A stretch of DNA of 34,847 nucleotides from Candidatus Kaiserbacteria bacterium. GTDB taxonomy: Bacteria; Patescibacteriota; Minisyncoccia; Phycocordibacterales; UBA918. Made by a program: the position numbers and the translations under genes. Position 1 is the first letter of the stretch, and every line of letters begins with the position of its first letter. A model generated the notes under the pieces. That model was not told where the DNA came from, searched no databases, and saw only the letters and a list, made by a program, of their open reading frames with translations. This document shows, piece by piece, positions 8,318 to 23,390 of this stretch. The stretch is from contig JAYVHQ010000020.1 of the NCBI GenBank assembly GCA_043771035.1, positions 1 through 34,847 of the forward strand. Direction: 5' to 3'.

Positions 8318-8446
8318 ATGAAAAAATTTCCCGAAGGGTTTTACTGGGGTGAGAAATGGGATGGGACCCAGTTCGCAAGAGGTTGCCAGCTATTTTGGAA
8401 AAATAGCGACAACCTGTACAGCTTCTGTAAGAAGGGCTACTTTTAA
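8318..8446 (+). pseudogene. duplicated GH1 5' fragment interrupted by a GTGAG element (42-codon chimeric ORF)
   Basis: Encodes MKKFPEGFYWG versus MKKTFPEGFYWG at 8450, with the upstream AAACT also duplicated; the frame continues through the element to TAA 8444-8446. Confidence 0.7.
8349..8434 (+). mobile_element. GTGAG three-hairpin element, copy 1 (subtype A)
   Basis: GTGAG-P1-TTCGCAAGA-GGTTG..GCTATTTT/AAAATAGC..CAACCT-GTACAG-CTTCTGTAAGAAG; matches six other copies. Confidence 0.8.
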
Positions 8447-8449
8447 ACT

Positions 8450-9676
8450 ATGAAAAAAACATTTCCCGAAGGATTCTACTGGGGTTCAGCCACCGCCTCC
8501 TACCAAGTCGAAGGCGGAATCGAAAATACTGATTGGGCGCAAGCGGCGCGCGAGGGTCGTGTGCCGCCCTGTGGCGCAGCGTGTGAACACTATACTCGGT
8601 ACGCGTCTGATTTTGATTTAGCAAAAGATCTGGGTCACACAGCTCATCGTTTATCTGTCGAGTGGGCTCGAATTGAGCCGACTCCTGGGAATTATGATCT
8701 TAAAGAAATAGAACACTACCGTGATGTGCTAAAGGCACTCCACGCACGTGGACTCAAACCCTACGTTACCATCTGGCACTTCACCCAGCCGCTGTGGTTT
8801 TCAGAAAGCGGTAGTTTTGAACAAAAAAATGCTCCAGAGATTTTCGCCCGCTACTGTGCGTTTGTTGTGAGTGAGCTCGGTGATTTGTGTGACCATTTTT
8901 CGACTATGAATGAACCCAATGTGTTTGCAAGTAATGGCTGGCTTAGGGGGAGTTGGCCTCCATTTAAACGCTTTGCGATGACAGATCTGATTTCAATCAC
9001 GAACTCGGGTAAAATGCTTGACTCTAAAGCCTCTAAAGGATTTAGACCACTGTTTACCTACTGGCGAGTAATGAAAACTCTGGCTTTGTCGCATAATGCA
9101 GCCTATAGGGCGATCAAAAAAGTCTCACCCCAGACCGAAGTCAGTTTTGTGCACCACGTGATTGTGTTTGACGCAAACTGGAATCCCTTTAACAAGATAA
9201 AGGCTTGGCTCGCGAACTATATGTGGACCTATAAGTTCATGAATCGTACAGCTAAACACTGTGATTCCATTGGACTCAATTATTACTTCTACACTAAGTT
9301 TGGTGATACGCGGGTTTGGCGAAAGACGGATATGGACTGGAATTTTGCTCCTGAAGAGATCTATATGGCGCTCATGATGCTCGCTAGGTATAAGCTACCA
9401 CTATTTGTAAGTGAGGGTGGGGTAGCGGACGCTACTGATAGTATGCGCAGTGAGTACATCAAGAAGCAAGTCCTCGGAACATGGCGCGCCATCCAAGATG
9501 GCGCAGACGTGCGCGGGCACATGTACTGGTCACTTCTCGATAATTACGAATGGGCACTCGGCTTTGGGATGCGTTTTGGAATTATCAAAGTTGATTACGC
9601 AACTCAAATACGAACTCCCCATCCGTCAGCCTACGTGTATAAACAAATATGTGAGAGCAATGCTGTAGTAGAATAG
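8450..9676 (+). CDS. glycoside hydrolase family 1 (beta-glucosidase-like)
   Basis: FPEGFYWGSATASYQVEG, RLSVEWARIEP, TMNEP (acid/base), VSEGG (nucleophile), WSLLDNYEW. Confidence 0.95.
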   Translation: MKKTFPEGFYWGSATASYQVEGGIENTDWAQAAREGRVPPCGAACEHYTRYASDFDLAKDLGHTAHRLSVEWARIEPTPGNYDLKEIEHYRDVLKALHARGLKPYVTIWHFTQPLWFSESGSFEQKNAPEIFARYCAFVVSELGDLCDHFSTMNEPNVFASNGWLRGSWPPFKRFAMTDLISITNSGKMLDSKASKGFRPLFTYWRVMKTLALSHNAAYRAIKKVSPQTEVSFVHHVIVFDANWNPFNKIKAWLANYMWTYKFMNRTAKHCDSIGLNYYFYTKFGDTRVWRKTDMDWNFAPEEIYMALMMLARYKLPLFVSEGGVADATDSMRSEYIKKQVLGTWRAIQDGADVRGHMYWSLLDNYEWALGFGMRFGIIKVDYATQIRTPHPSAYVYKQICESNAVVE

Positions 9677-9683
9677 TGTTGTA

Positions 9684-10616
9684 ATGGCTTGGATTTTACT
9701 TGCAACCCTCGGACAGTTTATTAATGCGCTGGTATCTTTTTTAGACAAGTATATTGTCTCGGATGAAAAAGCTCTACCTAGACCATTTGTCTACGCTTTT
9801 TACTCTTGTATTTTAACGGGTGGTTGGGTGGTTATTTATTTTCTTGGTTTTATTCCGGGCTTACGTGAGCTTGGGTTTCCGCATCTTTCCAACATAGAAT
9901 CACCTTCAATTCAGGTGGTAGCCATGTCGTTTCTGGCTGCGTATACGTTCTTTATGGCTTTGGTATCCATGTACTCAGCCTTGCGTAACGCCGAGGCGGT
10001 TAATGTAATGCCGGTGATTGGGGCTGTCTCAGCGGTCTCGTCGTTTGGGATGGTGTATTTGTTTTTGGATGTGGCGTTTTCGCCAAATTTTATGTGGGGC
10101 GTGGTGGTGCTGTCTTTGGGAACATTGCTGGTAGCGCAAACAATTCCCAAAATGGAAGATGTTTTGCACGTCTTTCACAGTGGGCTCTTTTTTGCCCTAC
10201 ACTTTATCACCATGAAGGGTTTGTTCCTGGAGACTAACTTTGACGATGGCTTTTTCTGGTCGCGAGTTTGTTTTGTACTATTTGCCCTGTCGCTCCTCTT
10301 GGTGCCGACATATTATAAAAAAATTCGTGAGCAAACGGGCACTACCTCTAAAAAGACCGGAGTGATTGTTATTTTTACCAAAATTCTAGCGGGCGTGGCT
10401 GCCTTTATGTTGCTTAAAGCGACAGACATGGGCGATGTGGCCGTGGTGCAGGCGCTTGATGGAGTCAAGTTTGTATTTATATTACTCATTACAATTATTT
10501 TTGCTTCACTGCTGCCTGATAGTGTTGCTACACACGAACCAAAACCCAAAGAAGTGATGCGACGGGTGCTGTATGTACTTGTCATCGCAGTTGGATACTT
10601 CATCTTATTTACCTAG
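9684..10616 (+). CDS. EamA/DMT-family membrane transporter
   Basis: About 10 hydrophobic segments in two repeats; N-terminal LDKY motif. Confidence 0.7.
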   Translation: MAWILLATLGQFINALVSFLDKYIVSDEKALPRPFVYAFYSCILTGGWVVIYFLGFIPGLRELGFPHLSNIESPSIQVVAMSFLAAYTFFMALVSMYSALRNAEAVNVMPVIGAVSAVSSFGMVYLFLDVAFSPNFMWGVVVLSLGTLLVAQTIPKMEDVLHVFHSGLFFALHFITMKGLFLETNFDDGFFWSRVCFVLFALSLLLVPTYYKKIREQTGTTSKKTGVIVIFTKILAGVAAFMLLKATDMGDVAVVQALDGVKFVFILLITIIFASLLPDSVATHEPKPKEVMRRVLYVLVIAVGYFILFT

Positions 10617-10672
10617 TATGACTTCTATAAACAGCACATTTCTGCGTTGTTCTGCGCAAAATACTCCTCACC

Positions 10673-10755
10673 GTGAGAAAGTCTGGGAGACTTTCGCAAG
10701 AGGTTGCCAGCTATTTTGTAAAAATAGCGATAACCTAAACAGCTTCTGTAAGAAG
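10673..10755 (+). mobile_element. GTGAG three-hairpin element, copy 2 (subtype A)
   Basis: P1 GAAAGTCT/AGACTTTC; near-identical to 16009-16091. Confidence 0.85.
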
Positions 10756-10784
10756 CAAAAAGTACGGCTTACATTTTTTTCTTG

Positions 10785-10870
10785 CTTCTTACAGAAGCTG
10801 TCCACTCATTGGGTATTTTTTCAAAATTCCTCAATGAGTCTTGCGAAAGCAAAGTGGTTTGCTTTCTCAC
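10785..10870 (-). mobile_element. GTGAG three-hairpin element, copy 3 (subtype B, inverted)
   Basis: Reverse strand reads GTGA-GAAAGCAAA/TTTGCTTTC-GCAAG-ACTCATTG/CAATGAGT-GGACAG-CTTCTGTAAGAAG. Confidence 0.85.
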
Positions 10871-10931
10871 GCCTTGAACTGCACTTGTTTTTGAAAGTCA
10901 TACGGAATTTACTAATCTCTCAAATATAGTT

Positions 10932-11963
10932 ATGAAAGTTTCTCACGGACTGAAGTGGTTAAAACGAATTATTTATACGATACTGATATTAGTAATCGTT
11001 GTGGCTAGCGTGTTGTGGCTCTTGGCACGTAAACCTGTACCTGAAACAATTACATATGGGATGTCGTTTAATACTATGTATGCTCGTGAATTAGGTTTGG
11101 ACTGGCGTGAGACCTATGACGCAATCTTAGATGAGTTAGGGGTGCGGCACCTGAGGCTCGCTGCTCACTGGCCGATGATTGAGCCTAAAAAGGATGTCTA
11201 TAATTTTGAAGAGCTGGATTATCAAATTAAAAAAGCGGAAGAAGTGGGGGCTACTGTGGTATTGGCGGTGGGGAGGAGGCTACCACGTTGGCCTGAGTGT
11301 CATGTGCCAGGTTGGGCCAAAGAAAAAAGTTGGGACGATCAAAAAGTTGAATTAGTTGATTATATTACCGCTGTGGTAACGCGCTACAAAGAAAGTCCGG
11401 CAGTAACAGTGTGGCAAGTTGAAAACGAACCTTATCTGAGTTTATTTGCTTTTGAGCACTGTGGTGCCTTGGATGAGGTGTTTCTTGAGCAGGAAATTGC
11501 CTTGGTAAAATCACTTGATGCCACTCGTCCGGTCCTGATAACCGACAGTGGTAATTTGGGTACCTGGAAGGGAGCTTATAGTCGGGGTGATAGATTTGGG
11601 ACTAGTGTCTATGTGCATTTTTGGAATCCGGAGTTAGGTCAATTCCGCACCTTTCTCCCACCTTGGTTTTATCGGGTAAAAGAAAATGTGGTCGCCCTGG
11701 TGTATGGAGACAAACCAACCTATCTGATAGAATTATCAGCTGAACCGTGGCTGGTTGCACCGGTGACTGCCGTGCCACTTGATGTGCAGTTTACCCGCAT
11801 GGATGTAGCAAAATTCAATGATATTTTGCAGTATGCTCGTGATACACGGTATGAAAATCAGTACTTGTGGGGTGCTGAGTGGTGGTATTGGCTCTTGCTT
11901 AAAAATGAACCGGCCATGTGGGAGCGCGGTAAAGAGGTGTTTACAAACGAAGCTGCTCTATAA
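10932..11963 (+). CDS. clan GH-A glycoside hydrolase (GH5/GH42-like), membrane anchored
   Basis: N-terminal TM; GRRLPRWPECH, WQVENEP and IELSAEPW catalytic-type Glu motifs. Confidence 0.8.
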   Translation: MKVSHGLKWLKRIIYTILILVIVVASVLWLLARKPVPETITYGMSFNTMYARELGLDWRETYDAILDELGVRHLRLAAHWPMIEPKKDVYNFEELDYQIKKAEEVGATVVLAVGRRLPRWPECHVPGWAKEKSWDDQKVELVDYITAVVTRYKESPAVTVWQVENEPYLSLFAFEHCGALDEVFLEQEIALVKSLDATRPVLITDSGNLGTWKGAYSRGDRFGTSVYVHFWNPELGQFRTFLPPWFYRVKENVVALVYGDKPTYLIELSAEPWLVAPVTAVPLDVQFTRMDVAKFNDILQYARDTRYENQYLWGAEWWYWLLLKNEPAMWERGKEVFTNEAAL

Positions 11964-11966
11964 ACT

Positions 11967-12293
11967 ATGTTACAAAAACTACAAAAAAACCAACGTCAGA
12001 TTTTGGAGTCAAGTAAACGTATGACTACGACCGCTATCAATACGCTTGATGCTACCGTTACCAAAGCAACGACAGAAGTCGATACGTATATTAGCCCGCT
12101 TCGAAAATCTGTTTTGTCGAGGTTTCCCATTATATTTTCACTCCTCACTACGTTTGGTGTCGCTACTACTTTTTTAGGATTCGAGAAAATTGTCTCAAAT
12201 ATTGATTTCCTCGATAGACACCCGATGTTCATGTTGATAGTTGGGATTAGTATCTTGGCAGCAACTGGTACACTGTACAAGAAACTTTCATAG
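11967..12293 (+). CDS. small membrane protein (2 TM)
   Basis: Tightly coupled ORF with two C-terminal hydrophobic helices. Confidence 0.7.
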   Translation: MLQKLQKNQRQILESSKRMTTTAINTLDATVTKATTEVDTYISPLRKSVLSRFPIIFSLLTTFGVATTFLGFEKIVSNIDFLDRHPMFMLIVGISILAATGTLYKKLS

Positions 12294-12294
12294 T

Positions 12295-12465
12295 ATGTCT
12301 TTTTGGCAATTCATCTTTTCGTTTTTGTATGTTCGTAATTGGCATAGCGGCAAAAAAGAACTATCTCGACCAAGAATAGCATTATTTTTTGCTGGCATTT
12401 TTCTGATACTAATAGCTCTGTCACTGATCGGTTTTTTACAATCTCCAGTAGTATTTACCCCGTAG
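12295..12465 (+). CDS. small membrane protein (56 aa)
   Basis: ATG 1 nt after the previous stop; MSFWQFIFSFLYVRNWHSG... with one clear TM. Confidence 0.6.
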   Translation: MSFWQFIFSFLYVRNWHSGKKELSRPRIALFFAGIFLILIALSLIGFLQSPVVFTP

Positions 12466-12467
12466 TA

Positions 12468-12569
12468 ATGCTCGTTTATATGTCGAAACTTTTTGTGGGG
12501 TTATTTATTTTTGCAATTTTAACAGTAGTTGGTCTGTTTATACTAGTGCAATTTTTTGCGTTCGGGTGA
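12468..12569 (+). CDS. possible 33-aa single-TM peptide
   Basis: ATG 2 nt after the previous stop; MLVYMSKLFVGLFIFAILTVVGLFILVQFFAFG; below the ORF-track cutoff. Confidence 0.4.
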   Translation: MLVYMSKLFVGLFIFAILTVVGLFILVQFFAFG

Positions 12570-12606
12570 TTGAATTTTGTTGCAAAATAAGCAATACTAG
12601 TACTAT

Positions 12607-13707
12607 ATGAAATATATTTTGGCGGGGGTTATTACTCTTTTGATTCCAATGCAAGTTTTGTTTGCAAACACTGTAGTGCGGTCGGGGGATACGGTGACTA
12701 TGACCGAAAATCAATCTATTGAAGGAAGTTTTTATGTACTTGGTGGCACAGTCGCTCTCTCAGGAAATATAACAGGTGATACTACGGTAATTGGGGGAAA
12801 TGTGACAGTCAGTGGTGACATAAACCAAGATCTTAGTATTTTAGCGGGGACAGTCAGTCTACAAGCCCCTGTTAAAGAAGACGCTCGGATTGTAGCTGGT
12901 CAGGTGACTATTACTGAAAATATCGAGGGTGATTTGGTGGTGATTGCAGGTAAACTGACTATTGCTTCACAAGCCAAGATTTCCGGCGATATTTTGTTCT
13001 ATGGCGGAGAATTAGTGGTGGAAGGGGCGGTGGGTGGAAAAATACTCGGTAGTGCTGAGAGTATGAGAGTTGATGCTGTTGTCGAGAAAGGGGTAGACGT
13101 CACAGCTCGGACCCTGACATTGGGCGATCAGGCAAATGTTACCGGTGATGTCGAGTATGTTAGTGCTACTGATGTAGTACGCGCCCCTGGTGCGGCTGTG
13201 TCTGGTAAGGTAACAAAAAATGCTCCCGTAGTAGCTGCGGGTAACGATAATATTGCCCGCACGACGGCAGTCACGTTTCTTATTTCTTTGTTTGCCACAC
13301 TTAGTCTTTATCTTATCTTTCGCCGTCGCGTGGAATCGTTTGCCACCGCAGTACGCAGTGGTCTGATTGTTAAAACCGTCGTGGGGTTTGTATGGGTGTT
13401 TATGATGCCGCTTTTTATCATAATTCTCTTGGTGAGCGTGCTTGGATCATTTGTTGGATTGATAGCGTTGTGTGTATTTGCTTTACTGCTCACTCTGGCG
13501 ATACCTCTACTTGCGGTCACTATGGGGTCACTCCTGGCACAATTAATTGATAAAAAAAGTACCCTGTCGGTACCGTACATTCTGCTCGGTGGGGTAGTGG
13601 TGCACTTACTAGTCCTGGTGCCGATAGTTGGGGCGGTGATTTTGCTAGGACTGTATGTAGCGACAGTCGGTACTATGGTTGATTTTTTGTACAAAAAAGC
13701 TCGCTAA
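12607..13707 (+). CDS. bactofilin-like beta-helix repeat protein with C-terminal TM domain
   Basis: Signal peptide, repeated GxVxGD/GGxVxI units, then 4-5 TM helices. Confidence 0.8.
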   Translation: MKYILAGVITLLIPMQVLFANTVVRSGDTVTMTENQSIEGSFYVLGGTVALSGNITGDTTVIGGNVTVSGDINQDLSILAGTVSLQAPVKEDARIVAGQVTITENIEGDLVVIAGKLTIASQAKISGDILFYGGELVVEGAVGGKILGSAESMRVDAVVEKGVDVTARTLTLGDQANVTGDVEYVSATDVVRAPGAAVSGKVTKNAPVVAAGNDNIARTTAVTFLISLFATLSLYLIFRRRVESFATAVRSGLIVKTVVGFVWVFMMPLFIIILLVSVLGSFVGLIALCVFALLLTLAIPLLAVTMGSLLAQLIDKKSTLSVPYILLGGVVVHLLVLVPIVGAVILLGLYVATVGTMVDFLYKKAR

Positions 13708-13783
13708 AATTGGGCATAATCTGACCAAAAACTACACAAAAAAATAACCTAAATAAGGCTGTTTTCTTGAAATAATCAAAAAG

Positions 13784-13792
13784 TGGTATACT
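13784..13792 (+). promoter_or_regulatory. extended -10 (TGGTATACT), probable leaderless transcript
   Basis: 6 nt before ATG 13799. Confidence 0.6.
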
Positions 13793-13798
13793 TGTACC

Positions 13799-14740
13799 AT
13801 GTGGAATAACTTTTGTGCTGTTGTCGAAGATCTATTCTGGTTTGCTCTTGGAGCACAAACAGTGTCTCCGGTAGCTGTTGCGCACGTGCCTGCTCCTCAG
13901 GTGCTTCTAGCCCCTTTCAAGTCGGCCCCCGTGCATCTGCCTCTACTTATGCCCGCTACACTTGCTGCACCTGCTGTGAGTACACTCTTGGCTGCTCAGC
14001 CTGCTAGATTAGGATTGAGTGCTCATTCAACGGTTGTTACAAAATTTAAAACAATAGCACTTGAGACAAAGCCGGCCGCGTCAATTCTACACGCGCCGGT
14101 TGTGATGTATGTGTCGCAACCTTTGGGTACGGCTTGTCTTCATGTGCCACAAATTGATTTTGATGCAGTGATTGAAGTCTTACCCTACGGCACTGCGGTG
14201 ACGGTGATCGGCTACGCTGGACGGTTTGCTAGTGTGAATCGTTCCAACATTACTGGCTGGGTATTGAAGGATGATATTACTCCTCAAAAAAATGAAGTGT
14301 GGCCTGAATTTATCAGGGGTGGTGTATATGACGTCTTGCACGCAGATACCCTAAAGTCACGTTCCTTAATTAATGATATGTTTGCTGGCGGAGCACTCGC
14401 GTTACCACTGCAAGCGGGTGAATATGTTACCGTCCGTCTTAAGAGCGAGCACCGTACAATCACGTGGTCACGTAAACGTCCCAGAGTCGCTGGTGACTGG
14501 GCCCGTTTACTGCGCGGTACAGCAGGTATCCATATTGGTGTGACGCCAAAAACAGATACGGTGATAGAGTGGCGTAGTAGTGACGGCGAAGGGAGGTTGG
14601 GCTATGTAGAAGCTGTCGCGCCTGATCAAGCCATTACCATCAGTGCCGTGGGTACTGATGAAGCTGGTCTCTTTACAATCAAAACCATGTCCGAAGAAAT
14701 CTGGCGCGAATTACGACCAGTTTTTATTGAGGTTGCATAA
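13799..14740 (+). CDS. SH3b + degenerate CHAP-like domain protein
   Basis: LPYGTAVTV...TGWV (SH3); AGDW, TPK, GYVEAV..D..ITIS (CHAP fold) without the Cys/His catalytic residues. Confidence 0.6.
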   Translation: MWNNFCAVVEDLFWFALGAQTVSPVAVAHVPAPQVLLAPFKSAPVHLPLLMPATLAAPAVSTLLAAQPARLGLSAHSTVVTKFKTIALETKPAASILHAPVVMYVSQPLGTACLHVPQIDFDAVIEVLPYGTAVTVIGYAGRFASVNRSNITGWVLKDDITPQKNEVWPEFIRGGVYDVLHADTLKSRSLINDMFAGGALALPLQAGEYVTVRLKSEHRTITWSRKRPRVAGDWARLLRGTAGIHIGVTPKTDTVIEWRSSDGEGRLGYVEAVAPDQAITISAVGTDEAGLFTIKTMSEEIWRELRPVFIEVA

Positions 14741-14744
14741 ATAC

Positions 14745-15020
14745 CTGGGATAGAGTAATCTAATCGTTCGCAAGATTGTTGCCTAGCAGCGGAGTTCGGC
14801 CCCCAACTGCAGCTAGGATGCATCAATCTGAACGTTCCTCTGGTGGGGCGTTTTGCATACGGGGGAGGTGGCAGCCTTTCCCGTATGTATGCGTTTGCTC
14901 TTTTTGAGTTGTTGCTAGTTCTGACTTCCTTCGCCGCAGAAGGGGTATGTGAACGGTAGCATGAGCACGCGCAAGCGTTGCTCGGCGCAGAGGGGAGAGT
15001 TCGCCGCTCCTCTCTGCGTC
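14745..15020 (+). ncRNA. candidate structured non-coding RNA (family unassigned)
   Basis: Five consecutive GC-rich hairpins with G-U pairs favouring the + strand, a GCAA tetraloop and a TTCG-containing loop, followed by a terminator. Confidence 0.5.
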
Positions 15021-15034
15021 AAAAATTTTTTGGT

Positions 15035-15064
15035 AAGTTCCCAGTTTCTAGCTGGGGCTTTTTT
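15035..15064 (+). terminator. intrinsic terminator
   Basis: AAGTTCCCAG-tttctag-CTGGGGCTT followed by a T-run. Confidence 0.7.
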
Positions 15065-16008: not shown

Positions 16009-16091
16009 GTGAGAAAGTCTGGGAGACTTTCGCAAGAGGTAGCCAGCTATTTTGCAAAAATAGCGACAACCTGAACAGCTTCTGTAAGAAG
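16009..16091 (+). mobile_element. GTGAG three-hairpin element, copy 4 (subtype A)
   Basis: 83 bp, 4 differences from 10673-10755. Confidence 0.85.
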
Positions 16092-17089: not shown

Positions 17090-17137
17090 AATTATTTTAC
17101 TGTGACTAGAGGTACAGTAAGTATAGTTAAAAAACAT

Positions 17138-17173
17138 ACGTATAATGTAGCGGTTAACCGCTACATTATACGT
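17138..17173. repeat. 36-bp perfect palindrome between convergent genes
   Basis: ACGTATAATGTAGCGGTT|AACCGCTACATTATACGT. Confidence 0.9.
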
Positions 17174-17254
17174 GGAAGTTATACCTCTCTGCTAACAGAA
17201 AGGTTGGACGAGTTACATATTTAATTTTCCATCTTCTATTTTCAATATTCAATT

Positions 17255-18454
17255 TTATCTTGTGTCTTCAATTCCAAGTGTCAAAAAGATACCGATGACC
17301 ATGACAAAACCTAAGACGATAAAAGCCAGATGGAAAGGCATGATGGCGAGGCAGAGGCTACCCAGGAGCGAGCCGGCGAGAACAGCCAGCGGACGGGTGA
17401 GTCTAAAGACGCTCATCAGGTTGGCGTCTTGGCCGCTAACTTTTTTGAAGAAGTAGCTTTCGGTAGTGACTTCAACCAAGCTGGCACCAATTCGACTACA
17501 AAACATCAGAATCATCCAGGGAATCAGCACAGCCGTCGTCATAAATGAGATGCTTGATACCGTAATCGCGAGAATTAGAAAGCCGATAGCCATCATTTCT
17601 TTTTCGCCAAAATAATTATCAGCCAGGATACCAATCGGGTATTCAAAGAGAACATAGGCGAGGAGTCCAGCGGCAATAATGGCGCCAATAGACGACCAAG
17701 GTAGTCCAATGACACTAGCGAGATACAATGGGAAGTAGACAACTGTCCAAGTGAAAAATATTTGGAGAAGAAAGTGAGTTGCCAACACCAATTTAATCGC
17801 TTTATTCTCCCAACATTGACGGATGAGCGGCTTGAGCTTTATTTTGTGATAGAGCGGATCAACAAAACCGCGAAAGGCAGCTATGACAATCAAACTAAAG
17901 ACCACCCCAACGCCAATGGCGATAAAATATAGCTGGGCTAGGTTATCGCCTTCACCCACCATGTAACTAATAGTCAGCGGTGCACATAAGGCGGCGAGGC
18001 TCATGAGTGACAATGTCAGTCCGCGCACATGTCCGGTCGCGCCCTCATTTTTACCAATTAAAGTCTCAGTAAAGATGTCGATATTTAAATAAATCAAGGG
18101 ATTAATAATCAAGAACAAAATAAGACCAAGTATAACCAGTGGTGCAGATAGACCAATTCCCATCAGGGCGAGAGTTCCCATCGAAATGATCATCAAACCT
18201 ATTGTGACCAGGAAATTGCCGAATCGTTTAAGTAAGCTCGGCAAAAAAATAAAAATCAGTAGCGAACCAATTGAACCAATTGAGTATATGAGTCCGATGT
18301 GTCTGACATCAATAAACTCACCAAGGTACGTCGGACTGGTGTATGACACGACGAGGGTGTGGAAGTTGAAAATAACTGCAATCAGATAGACAAACCAAAA
18401 TTTAATTTTATGCGGCGGCTGGGTAGTCTCAGTCGGCTTACGGTAAAAGTACAT
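17255..18454 (-). CDS. MFS transporter
   Basis: About 12 TM; GILADNYFGEK motif-A-like loop. Confidence 0.85.
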   Translation of the reverse strand: MYFYRKPTETTQPPHKIKFWFVYLIAVIFNFHTLVVSYTSPTYLGEFIDVRHIGLIYSIGSIGSLLIFIFLPSLLKRFGNFLVTIGLMIISMGTLALMGIGLSAPLVILGLILFLIINPLIYLNIDIFTETLIGKNEGATGHVRGLTLSLMSLAALCAPLTISYMVGEGDNLAQLYFIAIGVGVVFSLIVIAAFRGFVDPLYHKIKLKPLIRQCWENKAIKLVLATHFLLQIFFTWTVVYFPLYLASVIGLPWSSIGAIIAAGLLAYVLFEYPIGILADNYFGEKEMMAIGFLILAITVSSISFMTTAVLIPWMILMFCSRIGASLVEVTTESYFFKKVSGQDANLMSVFRLTRPLAVLAGSLLGSLCLAIMPFHLAFIVLGFVMVIGIFLTLGIEDTR

Positions 18455-18551
18455 AGTATTACTAGTGTACTAGAGGGAGAGTGAATATTGAATCTGGATT
18501 AGTGAATAGAGTGAAGAGAAAATGATAAACAATCTGGAAAAAATAAAGACT

Positions 18552-18657
18552 TGGATTGCCACGTCAATTCCGCATTCGCTCCATTGCCTCGCAAAGACAT
18601 TGGAAATGCAATGCTGTTCGTCTTTGCGAGGAGGAGGTACGACGACGTGGCAATCCA
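18552..18657. repeat. inverted pair of CGTC-type REP-like repeats
   Basis: TGGATTGCCACG...CTCGCAAAGACA (18552-18599) and CGTCTTTGCGAG...CGTGGCAATCCA (18619-18657). Confidence 0.7.
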
Positions 18658-18674
18658 CGGTGTTATTCAATAAT

Positions 18675-18709
18675 ACAAAACACCGCAAACTAAGTTTGCG
18701 GTGTTTTGT
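18675..18709. terminator. strong hairpin, probable terminator downstream of rnj
   Basis: ACAAAACACCGCAAAC-taa-GTTTGCGGTGTTTTGT. Confidence 0.7.
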
Positions 18710-18732
18710 TTCTTACTTTGTTAAGTGGTCGT

Positions 18733-18937
18733 TGGACCTTTGTAGGTGAGTACAGTGCTAGTGAGAAGTGACCTGATGTCACTTCGCAAGACTCATTGAG
18801 GGATTTTGAAAAAATACCCAATGAGTGGACAGTTCCTGTAAGGAAGTGCAAAAAAATTTTGTGGAGACGTACTGCTTGTACGGCAGAATAAAATTTTCGC
18901 AGCAACGACAACGCAATGTGCCGTTTCTGGAAGTTCA
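18733..18937 (-). repeat. second copy of the MITE-like host repeat, carrying one GTGAG element
   Basis: Reverse complement ACTTCCAGAAACGGCACATT...CTGCGAAAAT...CCGTACAAGCAGTACG aligns with 10621-10770. Confidence 0.55.
18761..18846 (+). mobile_element. GTGAG three-hairpin element, copy 5 (subtype B)
   Basis: P1 GAAGTGAC/GTCACTTC, P2 ACTCATTG/CAATGAGT, P3 TTCCT/AGGAA. Confidence 0.85.
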
Positions 18938-18939
18938 CG

Positions 18940-21021
18940 CTAAATACCGATTAGGACAGGGATGACCATTGGGGACTTTTGGGTTCTTTGCATCAAGAAA
19001 CTCTGAACTGTCTCAGTCAACTCATCTTTAACGTAATCCAGGTCAATTGGGTTCATGCGTTCGGTATGCTTTTCAATCGTCTTTTTAATCAAAACTCGGG
19101 CTTCAGATAAAAGCTGTTGGTTTTCACGGAGGTAGACGAAGCCACGAGAGATGATGTCTGGTGATTTGCGGAGTTTACCGGTTTTGGCATTGACGGTGGC
19201 GATAATCACGAACATACCATCTTCGGCAAGTGATAAACGATCACGCAAGACTACTTCTTGCCTGGTACCAACGGTAAAGCCATCAACTAATACTTGTTCA
19301 TTTGGAATCTTAACTTTGTGACGAGTAAGCTCGGTTCCGTTTTTGATATCGATGATTGAACCATTGTCAGGGACAGCGACATTCTCACGGGGGAAGCCAT
19401 TTTCTACCGCCACAAACATGTGCGTTTTGACGTGGTAGTGGTGACCATGAACGGGAATCAGGAAGCGCGGCTTGACGGCTTTGTGTACCCATACGAGCTC
19501 ACCGGCGTTGCCGTGGCCTGAGGCGTGGACGTGAGACCCTTGGAAGTTCATTACACGGACGTTTTGGCGATAGATATTGTCTTTTAGTTTTTGGACAGCG
19601 ACTTCATTCCCAGGAATAATCGATGAGGACAAGACAATTGTATCTCGTTCAGTGAGAACAATTTGTTTGTGCTTGCCGGTAGCCATACGCATCAAGGCGG
19701 CAAATTCTTCACCTTGGGCACCAGTAGACAGCACCACGATTTTGTCTGCCGGGTAATTAGAAATTTCACCAGCTGAAATAAAGGTATCGGGTTTTACTTC
19801 CATGAGTTTGGCGGTGATAGCGATATCAATGTTGGTCTTGATACTACGGCCTTCCATGACGACTTTTTTACCCATCGCTTCACAGCTTTTAATGACCGAA
19901 ACTAAACGATCAAACTGTGAGGCAAAGGTTCCGATAATTAATCGGCCGTTTGTGGTACGAATAATTTCATCAAGCGTCTTGTACACTTTAGCTTCAGCGA
20001 CTGAGAAGCCTGGGCGGTCGACGTTGGTCGAGTCGCACAAGAGGGCGATATTATTGTGATTACCAAGTTCCTCCCAAACAGTTTTTTCTTCGATGACGAC
20101 GTCATTATTGTCATCGGTGACGACTTTAATATCACCCGTGACCACAATGTCACCGTGTTTGGTTTCCACTGCCAAGCCCATCGCGTCAGGGATAGAGTGA
20201 GTAACCGGGAAAGTACGGATTTTGAATTTACCGACCGTAAATGTTTCACCCTCTTTCACAATCTGCATATTAACCGGCGCCATGCTCGGGAATTCTTCTT
20301 GACGCTTGAGAATCATGAGTGAAGTGAGGTACTGGGTCCAAATCGGCGGGTTACCGATACGTTCAAGGATAAACGGAATACCACCAATGTGGTCGAGGTG
20401 ACCGTGGGTGATAACCAGAGCGCGGATTTTGTCTTTGCGTTCCTCGAGGTATTGCGTGTTTGGTAGAATGTACTGAATACCTGGGGCGTTACTTTCGGCT
20501 GACACAAACCCGAAACCAGCATCGATCACAATAATGTCATCTTTGGTTTCGATAATGTTCATGTTGCGACCAATTTCTTCGACCCCTGATACGGTAATGA
20601 TGCGGACAGTGTCTTCGTCAGTGATTGGTGGAATAGCCGGATTTTTCTCATCACTGATCGTCATGCGGTGGGTGAGTGCCGGACTCGTCATAGGACGACG
20701 CCCTCTATCACCGCCACCATTGCGGCGTTTATTGCCACGACCAGGTTTTTTTGGTGCACCAGTAGCCTGTGTGCCTGCACTAGGACGAGTCCCGTGTGGT
20801 CTTGGGGTGTGGCTGTGGTTGCTTCCGTGACTTAAGGCGGCAGCTTCACCAGCTGGCCTGGGGGTAGTCGTTACGGGTGCGCCCGTCGCGCCAGCGGGTC
20901 TTGGACCACGATTTGGCGGGCGATTAAAATAGCGTCGCGCTGGTCTCGGGGCACCGCCTGGCGTAGCTTGGGCGACTGCTGGCCGAGGATTTGGATTGTT
21001 GTGCGGTTGAATGTTGTTCAT
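18940..21021 (-). CDS. rnj: ribonuclease J with a long disordered N-terminal extension
   Basis: GVEEIGRNM, THGHLDHIG, HSIPD, TGD, DSTN, HASGH, PVHG, SRGFVY. Confidence 0.95.
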   Translation of the reverse strand: MNNIQPHNNPNPRPAVAQATPGGAPRPARRYFNRPPNRGPRPAGATGAPVTTTPRPAGEAAALSHGSNHSHTPRPHGTRPSAGTQATGAPKKPGRGNKRRNGGGDRGRRPMTSPALTHRMTISDEKNPAIPPITDEDTVRIITVSGVEEIGRNMNIIETKDDIIVIDAGFGFVSAESNAPGIQYILPNTQYLEERKDKIRALVITHGHLDHIGGIPFILERIGNPPIWTQYLTSLMILKRQEEFPSMAPVNMQIVKEGETFTVGKFKIRTFPVTHSIPDAMGLAVETKHGDIVVTGDIKVVTDDNNDVVIEEKTVWEELGNHNNIALLCDSTNVDRPGFSVAEAKVYKTLDEIIRTTNGRLIIGTFASQFDRLVSVIKSCEAMGKKVVMEGRSIKTNIDIAITAKLMEVKPDTFISAGEISNYPADKIVVLSTGAQGEEFAALMRMATGKHKQIVLTERDTIVLSSSIIPGNEVAVQKLKDNIYRQNVRVMNFQGSHVHASGHGNAGELVWVHKAVKPRFLIPVHGHHYHVKTHMFVAVENGFPRENVAVPDNGSIIDIKNGTELTRHKVKIPNEQVLVDGFTVGTRQEVVLRDRLSLAEDGMFVIIATVNAKTGKLRKSPDIISRGFVYLRENQQLLSEARVLIKKTIEKHTERMNPIDLDYVKDELTETVQSFLMQRTQKSPMVIPVLIGI

Positions 21022-21048
21022 AAATATATAGTTAGTAATTATTAGTAA

Positions 21049-22791
21049 TTATTTAAAAAAGGGCCAAAGCTTCTCCTCACTCATGTTCCAGTCACTTACG
21101 TTCATAAAGCGTTCCTGAGGTCGGCTGATCTGCTCCATCGGCGTTATCTTTATAGTACTGTCATGGACGTAGACGAGCTGTGGGACGTAGAGGAAGGCGG
21201 CCGGGGTCTCGCGGCTAAAGATTTGTAAGGCGTCTTTCGTCGCAGTGATTTGTATTTCGGTGGAAGTGGCTACCCGAGCGCGGTCGAGTAAACGGTCGAC
21301 TTCAATATTTGCGTACTGCGAAATATTTAATCCAGGATCTTCTCGTTGCGATGAGTGCCAAAACGGATAGAGATCAACTGCTCGATTCATGTCGAGACCA
21401 AATAATAGCCCTTCAAAATCTCGTGGACGAATGACTGCTTGCAATAAATCACTTTGTTCAAATTGTTCTACCTGCACTTCTACTCCTAGTTCACGCCAGG
21501 CGCGGGCAATAAATTCCGTCGTTGCTTCAAATGAGGGTGTGTTGGCTGTTTTAAGAACTATAGAAAGTTTTTTAATTTCACCATCAATCCGTTTTTCCCA
21601 ACCACCGGTATTGTTCTTGATCCAGCCAGACCGTACGAGAATGGTCTCGGCACTTTGTTTCGCTGAACTAGTTCCTGCAGTTACTGTTTGACTCATTGAT
21701 TCTACCGCAGGGTGGTTGCTTGGTACAGGGTACTTTATGGGGACACCAAAACCAGACAAAGCCTCATCTACTAATAGGTCACGATCAATCGCGGTGGTGA
21801 GCGCTAAACGGACAGCGGTATCACGCAGGGCTGGTGACCGATTTTGATTAAAAAATATCGCAAAGACCCGCGGGAGGGGTTCAGTCATGATGCTGTAGGT
21901 ATTGCTGTCTTTGAGGGCGATAACATCAGCAACTGCTAGCTGAGCCGTGCTGGTTATTTCTTTATTGGCAAAGGCGCTGCCTAAAGCCTCTTCGTTTTGG
22001 TAAAAATGAACTTCAACAGTACCGATAATAACCGGCTTATTATTTGCGTATTTTTTTAACTCGTAGGTTGAAATAAGACCAGATTCATCTTTGCTGAAAC
22101 TGTCTATCATAAAAGGTCCAGAACCTATCGGTTCCGTATTTTTAATACTAAACGGCACTTGTTCTATCGGTAGATTGCTCCAAATATGCTTTGGCAAAAT
22201 ACCCAGGGTAAAGTTTTCTATAAAAGGAGTATATGATTTGGTCAGTAGAATATTAAGCTCATACTCCCCAATTTCTTCGACGGTGACATCAGACCAGTTA
22301 CCTCGCAGCGGGCTCTTGAGTTCGGCATTTTGCACGAGGCCAATCGTAAAAGCGACATCACGAGCCGTGACTGGCGTGTCGTCATGGAAACGTAGATTAT
22401 TTTTAAGAATAACATTATACGTTTTTCCGTCGTCTGAAACGGTAATACTATCGGCTAAATCCGGCACCAGATCGCCTTGGGGGTTAATTTTCATTAGCCC
22501 ACTATATATAAGAGCAGTCATGTCTTGGTCTGCTCGGGTCACTGCCAGAACCGGGTTGACAAAGCGGGGCGTGCCGATGACGCCTTCCTTGAGCGTACCT
22601 CCCGCCACCGGAGAGTTAGAACTATTGGCACTGCTCCACATAACACCAGCTGTGACGAGGGATCCTATAAGCGTAAAAAACAAAATACGCAAAATCAGCC
22701 GGTCGCTCGGGAGCTTGTTTTCTATAGTACCGATAAGTGAGCCAATAAGACTCATTCGTTTGGCAGGTGAGTGCGAGAATCGCAATTTCAT
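21049..22791 (-). CDS. ABC transporter substrate-binding protein, family 5 (peptide/nickel type)
   Basis: GGTLKEG, PDLA, FHD..VTARDVAFT, PIGSGPF, WHSSQ. Confidence 0.9.
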   Translation of the reverse strand: MKLRFSHSPAKRMSLIGSLIGTIENKLPSDRLILRILFFTLIGSLVTAGVMWSSANSSNSPVAGGTLKEGVIGTPRFVNPVLAVTRADQDMTALIYSGLMKINPQGDLVPDLADSITVSDDGKTYNVILKNNLRFHDDTPVTARDVAFTIGLVQNAELKSPLRGNWSDVTVEEIGEYELNILLTKSYTPFIENFTLGILPKHIWSNLPIEQVPFSIKNTEPIGSGPFMIDSFSKDESGLISTYELKKYANNKPVIIGTVEVHFYQNEEALGSAFANKEITSTAQLAVADVIALKDSNTYSIMTEPLPRVFAIFFNQNRSPALRDTAVRLALTTAIDRDLLVDEALSGFGVPIKYPVPSNHPAVESMSQTVTAGTSSAKQSAETILVRSGWIKNNTGGWEKRIDGEIKKLSIVLKTANTPSFEATTEFIARAWRELGVEVQVEQFEQSDLLQAVIRPRDFEGLLFGLDMNRAVDLYPFWHSSQREDPGLNISQYANIEVDRLLDRARVATSTEIQITATKDALQIFSRETPAAFLYVPQLVYVHDSTIKITPMEQISRPQERFMNVSDWNMSEEKLWPFFK

Positions 22792-22878
22792 ATAAATTAA
22801 AGGAGAATGACGTGCTTTAAAAGCACATTAAGGTGTGTAACAACAATAGAGCGTGATGTAATGGATGTGGTGTCTCGT

Positions 22879-23118
22879 TTAGACAACGATATTCAGAAGG
22901 GCAGACAAAACAAAGAGAATCGCAATACCAACAGAGAACTTAAACAAGAAAAGCTCGGCGCCACGGCGCTTATGAAAAGCAGAACTAAAGTTGTCACCAC
23001 CAAAGGCACCACCTAAGCTTGATCCTCGTTGTTGAAGTAAAATAGCGGCAATGAGTAGGACAGAGAGAATTATCTGTACGAACGGGAGTGCCGGTTGCAC
23101 TGTCTGTATGATTTCCAT
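22879..23118 (-). CDS. secG: preprotein translocase subunit SecG
   Basis: ILLQQRGSSLGGAFGG...KRRGAE, 2 TM; start at ATG 23118 with TATAGT 6 nt upstream. Confidence 0.9.
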   Translation of the reverse strand: MEIIQTVQPALPFVQIILSVLLIAAILLQQRGSSLGGAFGGDNFSSAFHKRRGAELFLFKFSVGIAILFVLSALLNIVV

Positions 23119-23232
23119 GTGAGCACTATAGTAGCACAGATACAAATAGAGTAAATAGGGGAGTGGTGGAAGTGCCGCTTGCTAATTTTCTACGAATAAT
23201 AACAGCTATCCAATTGCAATCTTCGTCTTTGC

Positions 23233-23390
23233 GTGAGAAAGTCTGGGAGACTTTTTCAAGAGTGAGCTATGACCTAAGTCATAGCGCAAGACTTTATGAG
23301 GAGCTTTGCTTCCATAAAGTGGACAGTTCCTGTAGGGAATGCCTGCTATTTTGAAAAAATAGCGACAACCTAAACAGCTTCTGTAAGAAG
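23233..23390 (+). mobile_element. GTGAG element copy 6 (subtype A), interrupted by copy 7
   Basis: 23233-23261 plus 23340-23390 reconstruct a subtype A copy. Confidence 0.8.
23262..23339 (+). mobile_element. GTGAG element copy 7 (divergent subtype), nested in copy 6
   Basis: GTGA-GCTATGAC/GTCATAGC-GCAAG-ACTTTATG/CATAAAGT-GGACAG-TTCCT/GGGAA. Confidence 0.8.

What the first reader, a model, noticed from the sequence alone, without database searches (positions are those of the whole stretch)
8349..23390. Unassigned ~80-bp three-hairpin mobile element with covarying stems (7 copies)
Seen: copies at 8349, 10673, 10785 (-), 16009, 18761, 23233 and 23262. Conserved linkers GTGAG, CGCAAGA and ACAG..CTGTA separate stems whose sequences change while pairing is kept. 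P1 variants: GAAAGTCT/AGACTTTC, GAAGTGAC/GTCACTTC, GAAAGCAAA/TTTGCTTTC, GCTATGAC/GTCATAGC and GAAaTGGG/CCCAgTTC. P2 variants: AGGTTG/CAACCT, ACTCATTG/CAATGAGT and ACTTTATG/CATAAAGT. P3 variants: CTTCT/AGAAG and TTCCT/(A/G)GGAA. There are no terminal inverted repeats, no target duplication and no transposase in the window. Inference: selection acts on a single-stranded fold, as expected for a HUH/RAYT-type transposase substrate or a small mobile or catalytic RNA. I do not recognise the family.
Basis: partly seen in the sequence, partly recalled or inferred. Interest (0 to 1): 0.85.

Follow-up and report, generated by a model that had tools for sequence, protein, structure and literature searches.

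The report
Three-hairpin mobile repeat in Patescibacteria
A roughly 83-base DNA module that folds into three hairpins is scattered about ninety times through this tiny bacterial genome and its relatives, behaves like a small insertion element that often sits beside tRNA genes with a duplicated gene end, and matches no described RNA or repeat family.

Summary
All 7 window copies match a covariance model. The stems covary strongly: 97.3% of cells pair and 24 of 27 pairs show double changes in 92 sequences.

The family is much larger than reported:
- about 90 copies in this 0.83 Mb genome;
- 34 of 36 same-genus genomes and 13 of 24 other families of the order;
- only 1 of 150 genomes in an even phylum draw.

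No Rfam family matches.

Many copies lie inside CGTC-tagged palindromic repeats. Several are flanked by 20-85 nt direct duplications of a gene end. One is the window copy at 8349.

Filled and empty orthologous sites and a nested composite copied with exact ends show insertion as a unit.

Copies cluster beside tRNA genes on the same strand. The usual layout is tRNA end, hairpin, inverted copy, element, direct copy.

The enzyme is unknown. RAYT and IS200 links failed.

Best reading: a non-autonomous, structure-defined mobile repeat. It is a new variant of the REP/MITE kind.

The parts
8349..8434 (+). Element copy 1 (P1, P2, P3). It lies inside a short upstream reading frame that starts at the old start codon of the hydrolase gene.
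   Evidence: R1 85.8 bits. Sequence. The frame 8318-8446 reads through it.
8309..8348 (+). Left copy of the duplicated 5' end of the glycoside hydrolase family 1-like gene (ribosome-site region, ATG, first 10-11 codons). It abuts the element's first base.
   Evidence: Direct repeat found. Orthologous filled and empty sites.
8441..8483 (+). Right copy of the same gene start. This is the copy that continues into the intact gene (ORF 8450-9676).
10673..10755 (+). Element copy 2. It converges tail to tail with copy 3.
   Evidence: R1 109.8 bits. Sequence.
10785..10870 (-). Element copy 3, with different P1 and P2 sequences and the same linkers.
   Evidence: R1 64.4 bits. Sequence.
16009..16091 (+). 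Element copy 4.
   Evidence: R1 109.3 bits. Sequence.
18761..18845 (+). Element copy 5.
   Evidence: R1 61.7 bits. Sequence.
23233..23390 (+). Nested composite. The outer element (23233-23261 and about 23341-23390) is interrupted after CAAGA by a complete inner element.
   Evidence: Sequence. The same composite lies at C75:165-321 at 94.9% identity over 157 nt, with identity starting at GTGAG and ending at the outer P3. A third, more diverged copy lies on C37.
23262..23339 (+). Inner element of the nested pair.
   Evidence: It folds at -28.7 kcal/mol, z -3.75.
23224..23232 (+). CGTCTTTGC tag of the partner palindromic repeat, directly before the composite.
23413..23425 (+). GTGGCAATCCACG arm of the partner repeat's inner hairpin, downstream of the composite.
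18552..18661 (.). Two halves of the CGTC-tagged palindromic repeat in 'inside-out' order (..TGGATTGCC..CTCGCAAAGAC, 20-nt loop, CGTCTTTGCGAG..GGCAATCCA..), about 100 nt before copy 5.

Best explanation
The ~83-nt module is GUGA, hairpin P1, GCAAGA, two-part hairpin P2, ACAG, hairpin P3. It is one member of a set of small, non-coding hairpin modules that insert into the DNA of one order of Patescibacteria. It has no gene of its own, so it is non-autonomous.

Shown:
- It is inserted and copied as a unit that runs exactly from GTGAG to the end of P3.
- It can insert into another copy of itself.
- About half of the copies in this genome sit directly after the CGTCTTTGCGA tag of a second, palindromic repeat.
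- Many copies lie beside tRNA genes on the same strand.
- Insertions that hit a gene survive where a duplicated gene end (20-85 nt) keeps an intact gene.
- At tRNA 3' ends the inserted unit reads: terminator-like hairpin, inverted copy of the tRNA end (often split by P1), P2, P3, direct copy of the tRNA end. The element therefore sits in the loop of a stem made of target sequence. Such units can pile up in tandem.

Inferred:
- A protein supplied in trans recognises the shape and the fixed linkers rather than the stem sequences. That would keep the stems paired by compensatory change.
- The inverted plus direct copies of the target fold into a double-stranded mimic of the target site on a single strand. 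Recombination at the tRNA T-loop boundary would then insert the unit, as folded single-stranded attachment sites do for integron cassettes and the CTX phage.

The enzyme, and whether the intermediate is DNA or RNA, are not known.
For: Abundance and patchiness:
- 105 matches at E<=1, about 90 of them at E<1e-5, in 828.7 kb.
- 0 to 59 matches per genome among 36 same-genus genomes.
- Several contigs end inside copies.

Insertion as a unit:
- The composite at C20:23233-23389 matches C75:165-321 at 94.9% over 157 nt, with 0 nt of extra identity on the 5' side and -1 on the 3' side.
- A nested insertion is seen.

Filled and empty sites:
- At the hydrolase gene start, 7 loci are filled (L060-L064, L066, L067) and 4 are empty (L065, L068, L069, L071). 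No gene-start motif was found in L070.
- At the tRNA-Ser 3' end, G029 and G018 are empty. G000, G017, G069, G031, G072, G001, G015, G080, G073 and others are filled. Some of those hold two units in tandem, and different inner modules occupy the same site.

Flanking direct repeats:
- 11 rows reached the lower cut-off (score >=12) in the own genome. 4 are 36-51 nt long and end within 6 nt of the element start (C7, C44, C75, C34:118). The window copy adds a 28-nt repeat ending exactly at it.
- In other genomes 10 of 82 elements have such repeats, against 3 of 272 random positions.

tRNA link:
- 8 of 18 own tRNA genes have a copy within 600 nt.
- 23 of 91 elements elsewhere lie within 400 nt of a tRNA, and 24 of the 26 pairs are on the same strand.
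- 10 of 17 own tRNAs have a copy of their last 16 nt 84-198 nt downstream, against 0 of 270 in mismatched controls. 7 of 17 also have the inverted acceptor strand, against 22 of 270.

Target-derived closing stem at a protein gene:
- At C75 the last ~26 codons of a comM-like gene are duplicated, and a 9-nt inverted copy closes a stem around the element.

Structure under constraint:
- Searches show the covariation.
- The copies at the orthologous hydrolase site in 7 species carry different, fully paired P1, P2 and P3.
Against: - No candidate enzyme was found. No multi-copy ORF family that looks like a transposase exists in this 77%-complete genome. The only tyrosine recombinase looks like a Xer protein. 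The only reverse transcriptase sits in a diversity-generating retroelement beside an Avd-like gene.
- No RAYT or IS200 link was found.
- Most copies show no flanking duplication: 72 of 82. The 5' flank shows no target consensus beyond the CGTC context: 20 of 42 copies are in that context, and the other 22 show only a weak purine preference.
- A carried copy of each target cannot by itself explain how one family serves more than ten different tRNAs and several protein genes.
- Some arrangements put the element inside the left copy of the duplication rather than between the copies (tRNA-Asn, Phe and Ile). That fits insertion into one copy of an older tandem duplication at least as well.
- The copies upstream of tRNA-Asn share derived changes across genomes, and the hydrolase site is filled in many species. 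Long retention could therefore reflect a host function rather than ongoing mobility.
- No polymorphism within a population was seen.
Confidence: 0.55

Rival explanations
1. It is a host-used structured RNA, and insertion is a side issue. It would be transcribed and perhaps cut out by tRNA-processing enzymes. At tRNA 3' ends the inverted and direct copies of the tRNA end would pair into an acceptor/T-stem-like helix around P1-P3, which RNase P and the 3' trimming enzymes could recognise.
For: - The linkers are conserved at 90% or more, and all three stems covary, across many genera.
- Copies at the same orthologous site in different species keep perfect pairing with different sequences.
- Arrangements upstream of tRNA-Asn recur in five genomes with shared derived changes.
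- tRNA genes and elements lie on the same strand in 24 of 26 pairs.
- At the hydrolase gene the element is on the sense strand of the mRNA and is read through by a short frame in 8 of 8 loci.
Against: - Orientation to flanking genes is not biased towards the sense strand: 17 co-oriented against 27 anti-oriented.
- The units at tRNA 3' ends begin with a terminator-like hairpin that should stop read-through.
- Copy number runs from 0 to 59 among genomes of one genus, and two nearly complete genomes have none. An essential RNA would not vary so.
- G.U pairs are rare inside the helices, 48 of 2284 cells.
- The two strands fold about equally well.
- No Rfam family matches.
Confidence: 0.2
2. It is a REP/REPIN-type or IS200/IS605-derived miniature element moved by a Y1 (HUH) transposase on single-stranded DNA. 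P1 and P3 would be the subterminal hairpins, and the tetranucleotides before them (GUGA, ACAG) would guide the cuts.
For: - The layout resembles IS200/IS605 ends: a hairpin near each end, each preceded by a fixed short motif (the resemblance is recalled from knowledge of IS608).
- The genome encodes two complete RAYT-like ORFs with an HxH motif, plus a third partial match.
- Half of the copies are joined to a CGTC-tagged palindromic repeat. CGTC is the tag of one of the two REP super-families described in PMC3733652 (abstract read).
Against: - One RAYT-like ORF is flanked on both sides by another palindrome and no repeat was seen beside the other. R1 finds no copy near either.
- There is no co-occurrence across 60 relatives.
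- The three identical IS200-like copies of G035 have ends unlike the element.
- P1 varies freely in sequence within one genome. That is unlike hairpins read by sequence.
- Long flanking duplications are not made by this kind of transposase (established for IS608; recalled).
- The abstract of PMC3733652 says CGTC repeats lack a dedicated transposase.
Confidence: 0.12
3. It is a small self-cleaving or otherwise catalytic RNA carried by a retro-element-like repeat.
For: Only general points support this. It is a compact three-helix fold with invariant joining nucleotides, it is multi-copy, and no known family matches.
Against: - No match to any ribozyme family in Rfam even at E<=10 over 8000-24000.
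- There are no tandem or circularly permuted arrangements.
- The only reverse transcriptase in the genome belongs to a diversity-generating retroelement.
- The invariant nucleotides are few and lie in plain linkers.
Confidence: 0.04

Closest known systems
REP / REPIN / BIME repeats of proteobacteria, including the CGTC-tagged REP super-family (Di Nocera et al. 2013, PMC3733652; abstract read)
   Same: - Short, abundant, extragenic, hairpin-forming and non-coding.
- Compensatory changes in the stems.
- Mosaic combination with other short motifs.
- The partner repeat here carries a CGTC tag and forms inverted doublets of about 83 nt.
   Different: - The element itself is three different hairpins in a fixed order with fixed single-stranded linkers. 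It is not one palindrome with a tag.
- No RAYT gene is flanked by it.
- It comes with long duplications of gene ends and a strong tRNA association.
IS200/IS605-derived miniature elements (palindrome-associated transposable elements); recalled, no paper read
   Same: Subterminal hairpins at both ends preceded by short fixed motifs, no coding capacity, and no short fixed target duplication.
   Different: - The ends are unlike those of the IS200-like element found in the genus.
- The hairpin sequences are not conserved.
- Long variable flanking duplications are present.
Folded single-stranded attachment sites: integron attC sites and the CTX phage attP(+) hairpin; recalled, no paper read
   Same: - Structure is conserved and sequence is not.
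- An inverted and a direct copy of the site pair on one strand.
- The integrated form has an inverted pair at one junction and a lone copy at the other.
- Tandem arrays form at one site.
   Different: - Targets are many different tRNA ends and protein-gene ends, not one attI or dif site.
- No integron integrase was seen, only one Xer-like recombinase.
- No RYYYAAC/GTTRRRY cores were recognised by eye.
- No cassette genes are present.
Integrative elements at tRNA genes and their gene-less remnants (cis-mobilisable elements, accretion arrays); tRNA gene fragments as scars of integration (PMC9897764, search listing only)
   Same: A direct repeat of the tRNA T-loop-to-3'-end segment flanks the insert. 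The intact tRNA is restored. Units accrete in tandem.
   Different: - The insert is only 150-260 nt.
- It carries an extra inverted copy of the tRNA end.
- One backbone serves many tRNAs.
- No integrase-bearing full-length relative was found.
Modular pneumococcal BOX elements, Neisseria Correia elements, and hairpin repeats of organelle genomes (double-hairpin elements; repetitive hairpin-forming elements, PMC2800124, search listing only)
   Same: Modular or nested small hairpin repeats that spread within compact genomes and sit at gene ends.
   Different: - The sequences and hosts are unrelated.
- None is known (recalled) to combine fixed linkers, three covarying hairpins and target-derived closing stems.

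Membership tests
Any Rfam 15 family | Score at or above the family's gathering threshold | tested here: not met
   0 matches over the whole window at gathering thresholds. At E<=10 over 8000-24000 the only low E-value is rli40, at 41.3 bits against a threshold of 100, on the minus strand at 18674-18927.
REP/REPIN mobilised by RAYT | The RAYT gene is flanked by the repeat in inverted orientation | tested here: not met
   The RAYT-like ORF on C26 is flanked on both sides by a different 25-nt palindrome. No such repeat was seen beside the ORF on C73. R1 finds 0 matches in both loci.
REP/REPIN mobilised by RAYT | A single short palindrome with an unpaired GTAG or CGTC tag at one end | tested here: not met
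   The element starts with GTGAG and has three distinct hairpins. The partner repeat does carry CGTC.
REP/REPIN mobilised by RAYT | Repeat and RAYT co-occur across genomes | tested here: not met
   G031 has 38 copies and 0 Y1 matches. G005 has 11 copies and 0. G046 and G056 have 0 copies and 4 Y1 matches each. The genomes are metagenome bins, so absences are soft.
IS200/IS605-derived miniature element | Ends resemble the left and right ends of a full-length element with tnpA | tested here: not met
   The ~650-bp IS200-like element present in three copies in G035 has different terminal hairpins. Only this one full-length element was examined.
IS200/IS605-derived miniature element | Insertion 3' of a fixed tetra- or pentanucleotide, without target duplication | tested here: inconclusive
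   Outside the CGTC context there is only a weak purine preference at -2/-1. The tRNA D-loop sites all read ..GGT(A/G)GA before GTGAG. A minority of copies have long duplications.
Integron attC site | Inverse core and core sites (RYYYAAC / GTTRRRY) at the base of one imperfect hairpin; cassette arrays; IntI nearby | tested here: inconclusive
   The junction at tRNA 3' ends lies at G|TTCGA of the T-loop. That shares only the GTT triplet. No integron-type integrase was looked for beyond PF00589, which gave one Xer-like hit. No attC model was run.
Integrative element at a tRNA gene | Direct repeat of the tRNA 3' segment at both ends of the insert, with the tRNA intact | tested here: met
   10 of 17 own tRNAs, against 0 of 270 controls. 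Empty and filled tRNA-Ser sites share the same downstream flank.
Integrative element at a tRNA gene | Encodes, or has a relative that encodes, its integrase | tested here: not met
   The inserts are 150-260 nt without ORFs. No full-length relative was seen in the loci examined. No systematic search was run.
MITE with terminal inverted repeats and short fixed target duplication | Terminal inverted repeats belonging to the element; a target duplication of 2-10 bp of fixed length | tested here: not met
   The two ends of the unit defined are not inverted repeats of each other. The closing stems are made of flanking or target sequence. The duplications are 20-85 nt and vary in length.

The most novel reading that the evidence does not exclude
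The units are miniature integrative elements that can be retargeted. Each carries, or makes at insertion, an inverted copy of ~10-25 nt of its target. That copy pairs with the target sequence on a single strand and so sets the insertion site and the length of the duplicated segment. One three-hairpin backbone could then colonise the ends of many different tRNA genes, 5S rRNA and protein genes while rebuilding the gene each time. This would be a nucleic-acid-guided insertion system with no dedicated gene inside the element. It would be served by a protein still unknown in one order of Patescibacteria.
Probability: 0.15. Interest if true: 0.9.

Novelty: new variant of a known kind. Interest (0 to 1): 0.68.

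Why it matters
Patescibacteria have some of the smallest and most streamlined bacterial genomes. Even so, roughly one of these modules occurs per 9 kb here, and they break the assembly at many places.

If the reading is right, this is a structure-defined mobile repeat family in which the same backbone is found at many tRNA genes. In each case a target-matched inverted and direct copy is present and the gene is restored.

That combination is not part of the REP, MITE, integron or tRNA-island descriptions that I know or found. Four literature searches (listings only, apart from one abstract) turned up no description.

Practical consequences:
- The covariance model and the layout 'gene end, hairpin, inverted copy, element, gene end' would improve annotation of these genomes. 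They explain tRNA fragments, short spurious ORFs and contig breaks.
- The filled and empty sites give markers for strain history.

If a guide-like mechanism were shown, it would add a new way of choosing insertion sites.

Tried and rejected
- Rfam at gathering thresholds and at E<=10 gave nothing usable. The rli40 hit is far below threshold and lies on the other strand.
- tRNA scan of the window: none found.
- TnpB-type domain PF07282: no match in the genome.
- RAYT link: rejected.
- IS200 link: rejected for the one element examined.
- Reverse transcriptase: the single RVT_1 match sits beside an Avd-like ORF and a repeated ORF pair, so it belongs to a diversity-generating retroelement and not to these repeats.
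- Tyrosine recombinase: one Xer-like gene at a contig end, with nothing linking it to the element.
- Multi-copy ORF families: none looks like a transposase. The first attempt crashed on a script error.
- Viral contigs: 0 exact pattern matches.
- Phylum-wide prevalence: only 1 of 150 other genomes matched at E<=1e-5 with stricter filters. Those filters also cut this genome's own count from 105 to 30. I therefore dropped the idea that the element is general to the whole radiation.
- Strand of the fold: helix-only counts favour the GTGAG strand. Minimum-energy folds of both strands are mixed. In the 92 sequences from other genomes the + strand is more stable in 62 and less stable in 29. In the own-genome set the figures are 43 and 48. 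G.U pairs in those folds are 56 against 98, and 129 against 110. The window copies fold at least as well on the minus strand. No conclusion was drawn.
- Orientation to genes: 17 co-oriented, 27 anti-oriented, 13 divergent, 8 convergent, 21 at contig edges, and 6 inside crude ORFs that are probably spurious. No conclusion was drawn.
- Expression: no RNA holder is listed for the stretch.
- Population polymorphism: contigs of four metagenome runs laid on 7700-24000 gave only short pieces and chimeric joints between copies. No contig cleanly skips one element.
- Peptide coding: rejected as a general property, because copy 18761 has an in-frame TGA in the frame that is open at the hydrolase site (read).
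- Supplements of papers were not consulted. PMC3733652 may list CGTC families in supplements that I could not see.

Full report
**What is there.** It reads GTGA, hairpin P1 (closed by the G of GTGAG and the C of CGCAAGA), GCAAGA, a two-part hairpin P2 with a small internal loop, a linker ending in ACAG, and a 5-bp hairpin P3 with loop GTA.

I built a covariance model from eight equal-length copies with this structure. It recovers all seven places on the window's contig. The pair at 23233/23262 is one complete element inserted into another, right after the CAAGA linker of the outer one.

Rfam has no family for it, either at gathering thresholds over the window or at E<=10 over 8000-24000. ARAGORN finds no tRNA in the window.

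**How much of it, and where.**
- The window is contig C20 of an 828.7-kb, 86-contig genome with 43.6% G+C, estimated 77% complete.
- The model finds 105 matches at E<=1 in this genome, about 90 of them below 1e-5. Several contigs end inside copies.
- 34 of 36 same-genus genomes have matches, with 0 to 59 per genome. So do 13 of 24 genomes from other families of the order.
- An even draw of 150 genomes across the phylum gave only 1 with a match. That run used stricter filters, which also cut this genome's own count to 30.
- A strict sequence pattern hit at least 119 stretches in the species-representative genome collection. In the 80 listed titles, all but one that name a group name Patescibacteria groups: many Saccharibacteria, also Kaiserbacteria, Nomurabacteria, Zambryskiibacteria, Paceibacteria and others. 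The exception is labelled Acidimicrobiales, and the rest say only 'bacterium'.
- The same pattern hit nothing in IMG/VR.
- The family is therefore common in one order and sporadic elsewhere.

**Covariation.** I aligned 92 matches from those other genomes to the model.
- 97.3% of 2284 cells form standard pairs.
- 24 of 27 pairs have changes on both sides.
- The covariation score is 0.677. Shuffles give 0.170 and slid partners give 0.05-0.11. This alignment is fitted to the model and the sequences are related, so the figures flatter the structure.
- As a check, a plain MAFFT alignment of 20 copies of this genome folded by RNAalifold gives P2 and P3 on its own, with 13 of 18 pairs compensatory. 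P1 is lost there because MAFFT misaligns it.
- The linkers are invariant or nearly so.

**Which strand folds is open.** Inside the helices G.T outnumbers A.C by 48 to 12. Folding each element on both strands gives no consistent winner. The stems are 95% Watson-Crick. Orientation relative to neighbouring genes is 17 co-oriented against 27 anti-oriented.

**It is embedded in a larger repeat system.** The commonest 11-mers of the genome are CGTCTTTGCGA and its complement (125 occurrences), followed by arms of a GGCAATCCA hairpin.
- Together they make palindromic units of about 83 nt.
- In 20 of 42 copies that start with GTGAG, the three-hairpin module follows the CGTCTTTGC(GA) tag directly. This gives composites of 150-240 nt closed by the tag and its complement.
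- The window holds such pieces at 18552-18661, 23224-23232 and 23413-25.
- A CGTC tag defines one of the two REP super-families of Di Nocera et al. Their abstract says these lack a dedicated transposase (PMC3733652, abstract read).

**It is inserted DNA.** Three lines of evidence support this.

- *Exact unit boundaries.* The nested composite of the window recurs at C75:165-321 with 94.9% identity over 157 nt. The identity starts at GTGAG and stops at the end of the outer P3. The unit's boundaries are therefore exact.

- *The hydrolase gene start.* This concerns the start of the glycoside hydrolase family 1-like gene (window 8450; the family name rests on the FPxGFYWG start and is recalled, not tested).
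  - Seven fetched loci hold the order: old promoter and start codon, first codons up to TGGG, element, short spacer, new start codon, intact gene.
  - Four loci have the plain gene. No gene start was found in one further locus, L070.

- *The tRNA-Ser(GGA) 3' end.*
  - In G029 and G018 the tRNA is followed directly by the downstream flank.
  - In G000, G017, G069, G031, G072, G001, G015, G080, G073 and others, 150-260 nt are added between the tRNA and that same flank. Some have two units in tandem, and different inner modules occupy the same site.

**Duplicated gene ends.**
- In this genome 11 rows reached the lower cut-off (score >=12). Four are 36-51 nt long and end within 6 nt of the element start (C7, C44, C75, C34:118). 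The window copy at 8349 has a 28-nt repeat that ends exactly at it.
- In the other genomes 10 of 82 elements have such repeats, against 3 of 272 random positions. In 6 of those 10 the left repeat ends exactly at the element's first base.
- The repeated pieces are gene ends: the hydrolase start, 5' parts of tRNAs up to the D-loop (..GGT(A/G)GA then GTGAG), and what looks like a 5S rRNA piece, judged by eye.
- At C75 the last ~26 codons plus the stop codon of a comM-like gene are duplicated. A 9-nt inverted copy of the junction closes a stem around the element.
It fails for the window copy at 8349, where 8309-8348 repeats 8441-8483.

**tRNA genes.**
- 8 of 18 tRNA genes of this genome have a copy within 600 nt.
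- In the other genomes 23 of 91 elements lie within 400 nt of a tRNA. 24 of the 26 pairs are on the same strand.
- 10 of 17 own tRNAs have a direct copy of their last 16 nt 84-198 nt downstream. Mismatched controls give 0 of 270.
- The layout, read, is:
  1. the intact tRNA;
  2. a terminator-like hairpin with an A-tract and a T-tract;
  3. the inverted complement of the acceptor 3' strand;
  4. often hairpin P1;
  5. the inverted complement of the T-stem/T-loop ending in TTCGAA(A)G, which resembles the CGCAAGA linker;
  6. P2 or another inner module;
  7. GTAC(T)G and P3;
  8. a direct copy of the tRNA from the T-loop to its 3' end.
- The inverted copy matches the functional tRNA better than the decayed distal copy in the two cases I compared, Ser and Arg.
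- The hairpin after the tRNA is homologous between species at the same tRNA even when the inner module differs.

**What moves it is unknown.**
- The genome has two complete RAYT-like ORFs with HxH motifs and a third partial match. One is flanked by a different palindrome and no repeat was seen beside the other. The model finds nothing near either.
- Y1_Tnp presence across 60 relatives does not follow copy number.
- An IS200-like element in three identical copies in G035 has unrelated ends.
- There is no TnpB-type domain.
- There is one Xer-like tyrosine recombinase.
- There is one reverse transcriptase, which belongs to a diversity-generating retroelement with an Avd-like gene.
- No multi-copy ORF family looks like a transposase.

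**Reading.** I commit to a non-autonomous, structure-defined mobile repeat at 0.55. Its insertions into genes survive where a duplicated end rebuilds the gene.

The step I regard as inferred is the mechanism. The inverted plus direct copies would fold on one strand into a mimic of the target duplex, with P2 and P3 at its base. Recombination at the T-loop boundary would insert the unit, as with integron attC sites and the CTX phage attachment hairpin (recalled). This explains four things:
- the perfect palindrome spanning the tRNA end and the hairpin;
- the tandem arrays;
- the strand rule;
- the lone distal copy.

It does not explain how one backbone acquires matched arms for more than ten targets. 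It also does not explain the cases where the element lies inside the left copy of the duplication.

The rivals are a host-used RNA (0.2), a RAYT/IS200-type substrate (0.12) and a ribozyme (0.04).

**A detail that bears on function.** At the hydrolase site a short frame starts at the old start codon in 8 of 8 loci. It reads through the whole element and stops between 8 nt inside and 20 nt before the new start codon. Two of the eight loci give identical leader peptides and may be the same genome. The stems differ between species, so the frame has stayed open despite many changes. This looks like selection for translational coupling after the insertion.

**What I could not get.**
- No RNA run is listed for this organism.
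- Metagenome contigs laid on the window gave only chimeric joints between copies.
- Four literature searches (listings only, apart from the one abstract) found no description of this element. That is not proof that none exists.

Noticed in passing
window 8318-8446 and orthologous loci L061-L064, L066, L067, L098: A 42-51 codon frame starts at the displaced original start codon of the hydrolase gene and reads through the whole element. It stops within -8 to +20 nt of the new start codon in 8 of 8 loci. This is a translational-coupling arrangement kept despite different stem sequences.
   Followed up: partly
G000 contig C18:3279-6890 (locus L091): A diversity-generating retroelement. It has a reverse transcriptase ORF (351 aa) and a divergent Avd-like four-helix ORF (177 aa). 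Two nearby short ORFs share a near-identical stretch, which is probably the template and variable repeats.
   Followed up: no
G000 contig C26:10370-13618 (locus L001), 1298-1322 and 1941-1965: A RAYT-like ORF (206 aa, LPNHFHL motif) is flanked on both sides by the same 25-nt perfect palindrome. This is a classic REP-RAYT arrangement, but with a repeat unrelated to the finding.
   Followed up: partly
G000 C35:8200-8410, C19:476-700, C13:7840-8043; also L054, L079, L081: A second inner module can take the place of P2-P3 in the units at tRNA 3' ends. It reads ..GAGACGGAGAC, hairpin, GTCGAGTCGGGGTCGAGA, hairpin with a GGAGCG.AGCGAA loop..TCGTGACC. It is itself a target for insertion of the three-hairpin element.
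   Followed up: partly
window 10757-10784 and 18848-18905; G000 C19:9380-9450, C47:2170-2240: A further small module recurs next to copies of the element: an A/T-rich stem around GAGCCGTAC..GTACGG.
   Followed up: no
window 18674-18927, minus strand: A sub-threshold Rfam match to Listeria sRNA rli40 (41.3 bits, threshold 100, E 2.5e-7) overlaps copy 5 and the neighbouring hairpin module. It is probably a chance likeness of hairpin-rich sequence.
   Followed up: no
locus L165 about 6660-6920; locus L057 1700-1790: In another genome the flanking duplicated piece looks like part of a 5S rRNA gene, judged by eye and not confirmed. A 5S-like gene also lies near a copy in G009.
   Followed up: no
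G035 locus L211 1330-2110: A ~650-bp IS200-like element sits between a tRNA gene and the hairpin-plus-inverted-copy unit that normally follows the tRNA. The tRNA 3' flank is therefore a shared landing place for unrelated elements.
   Followed up: no
window 10573-10929, 23163-23354 and 23206-23424: The ORFs listed here (118, 63 and 72 aa) run through element copies and are most likely artefacts of stop-free repeat sequence. Gene callers may report them as hypothetical proteins.
   Followed up: no
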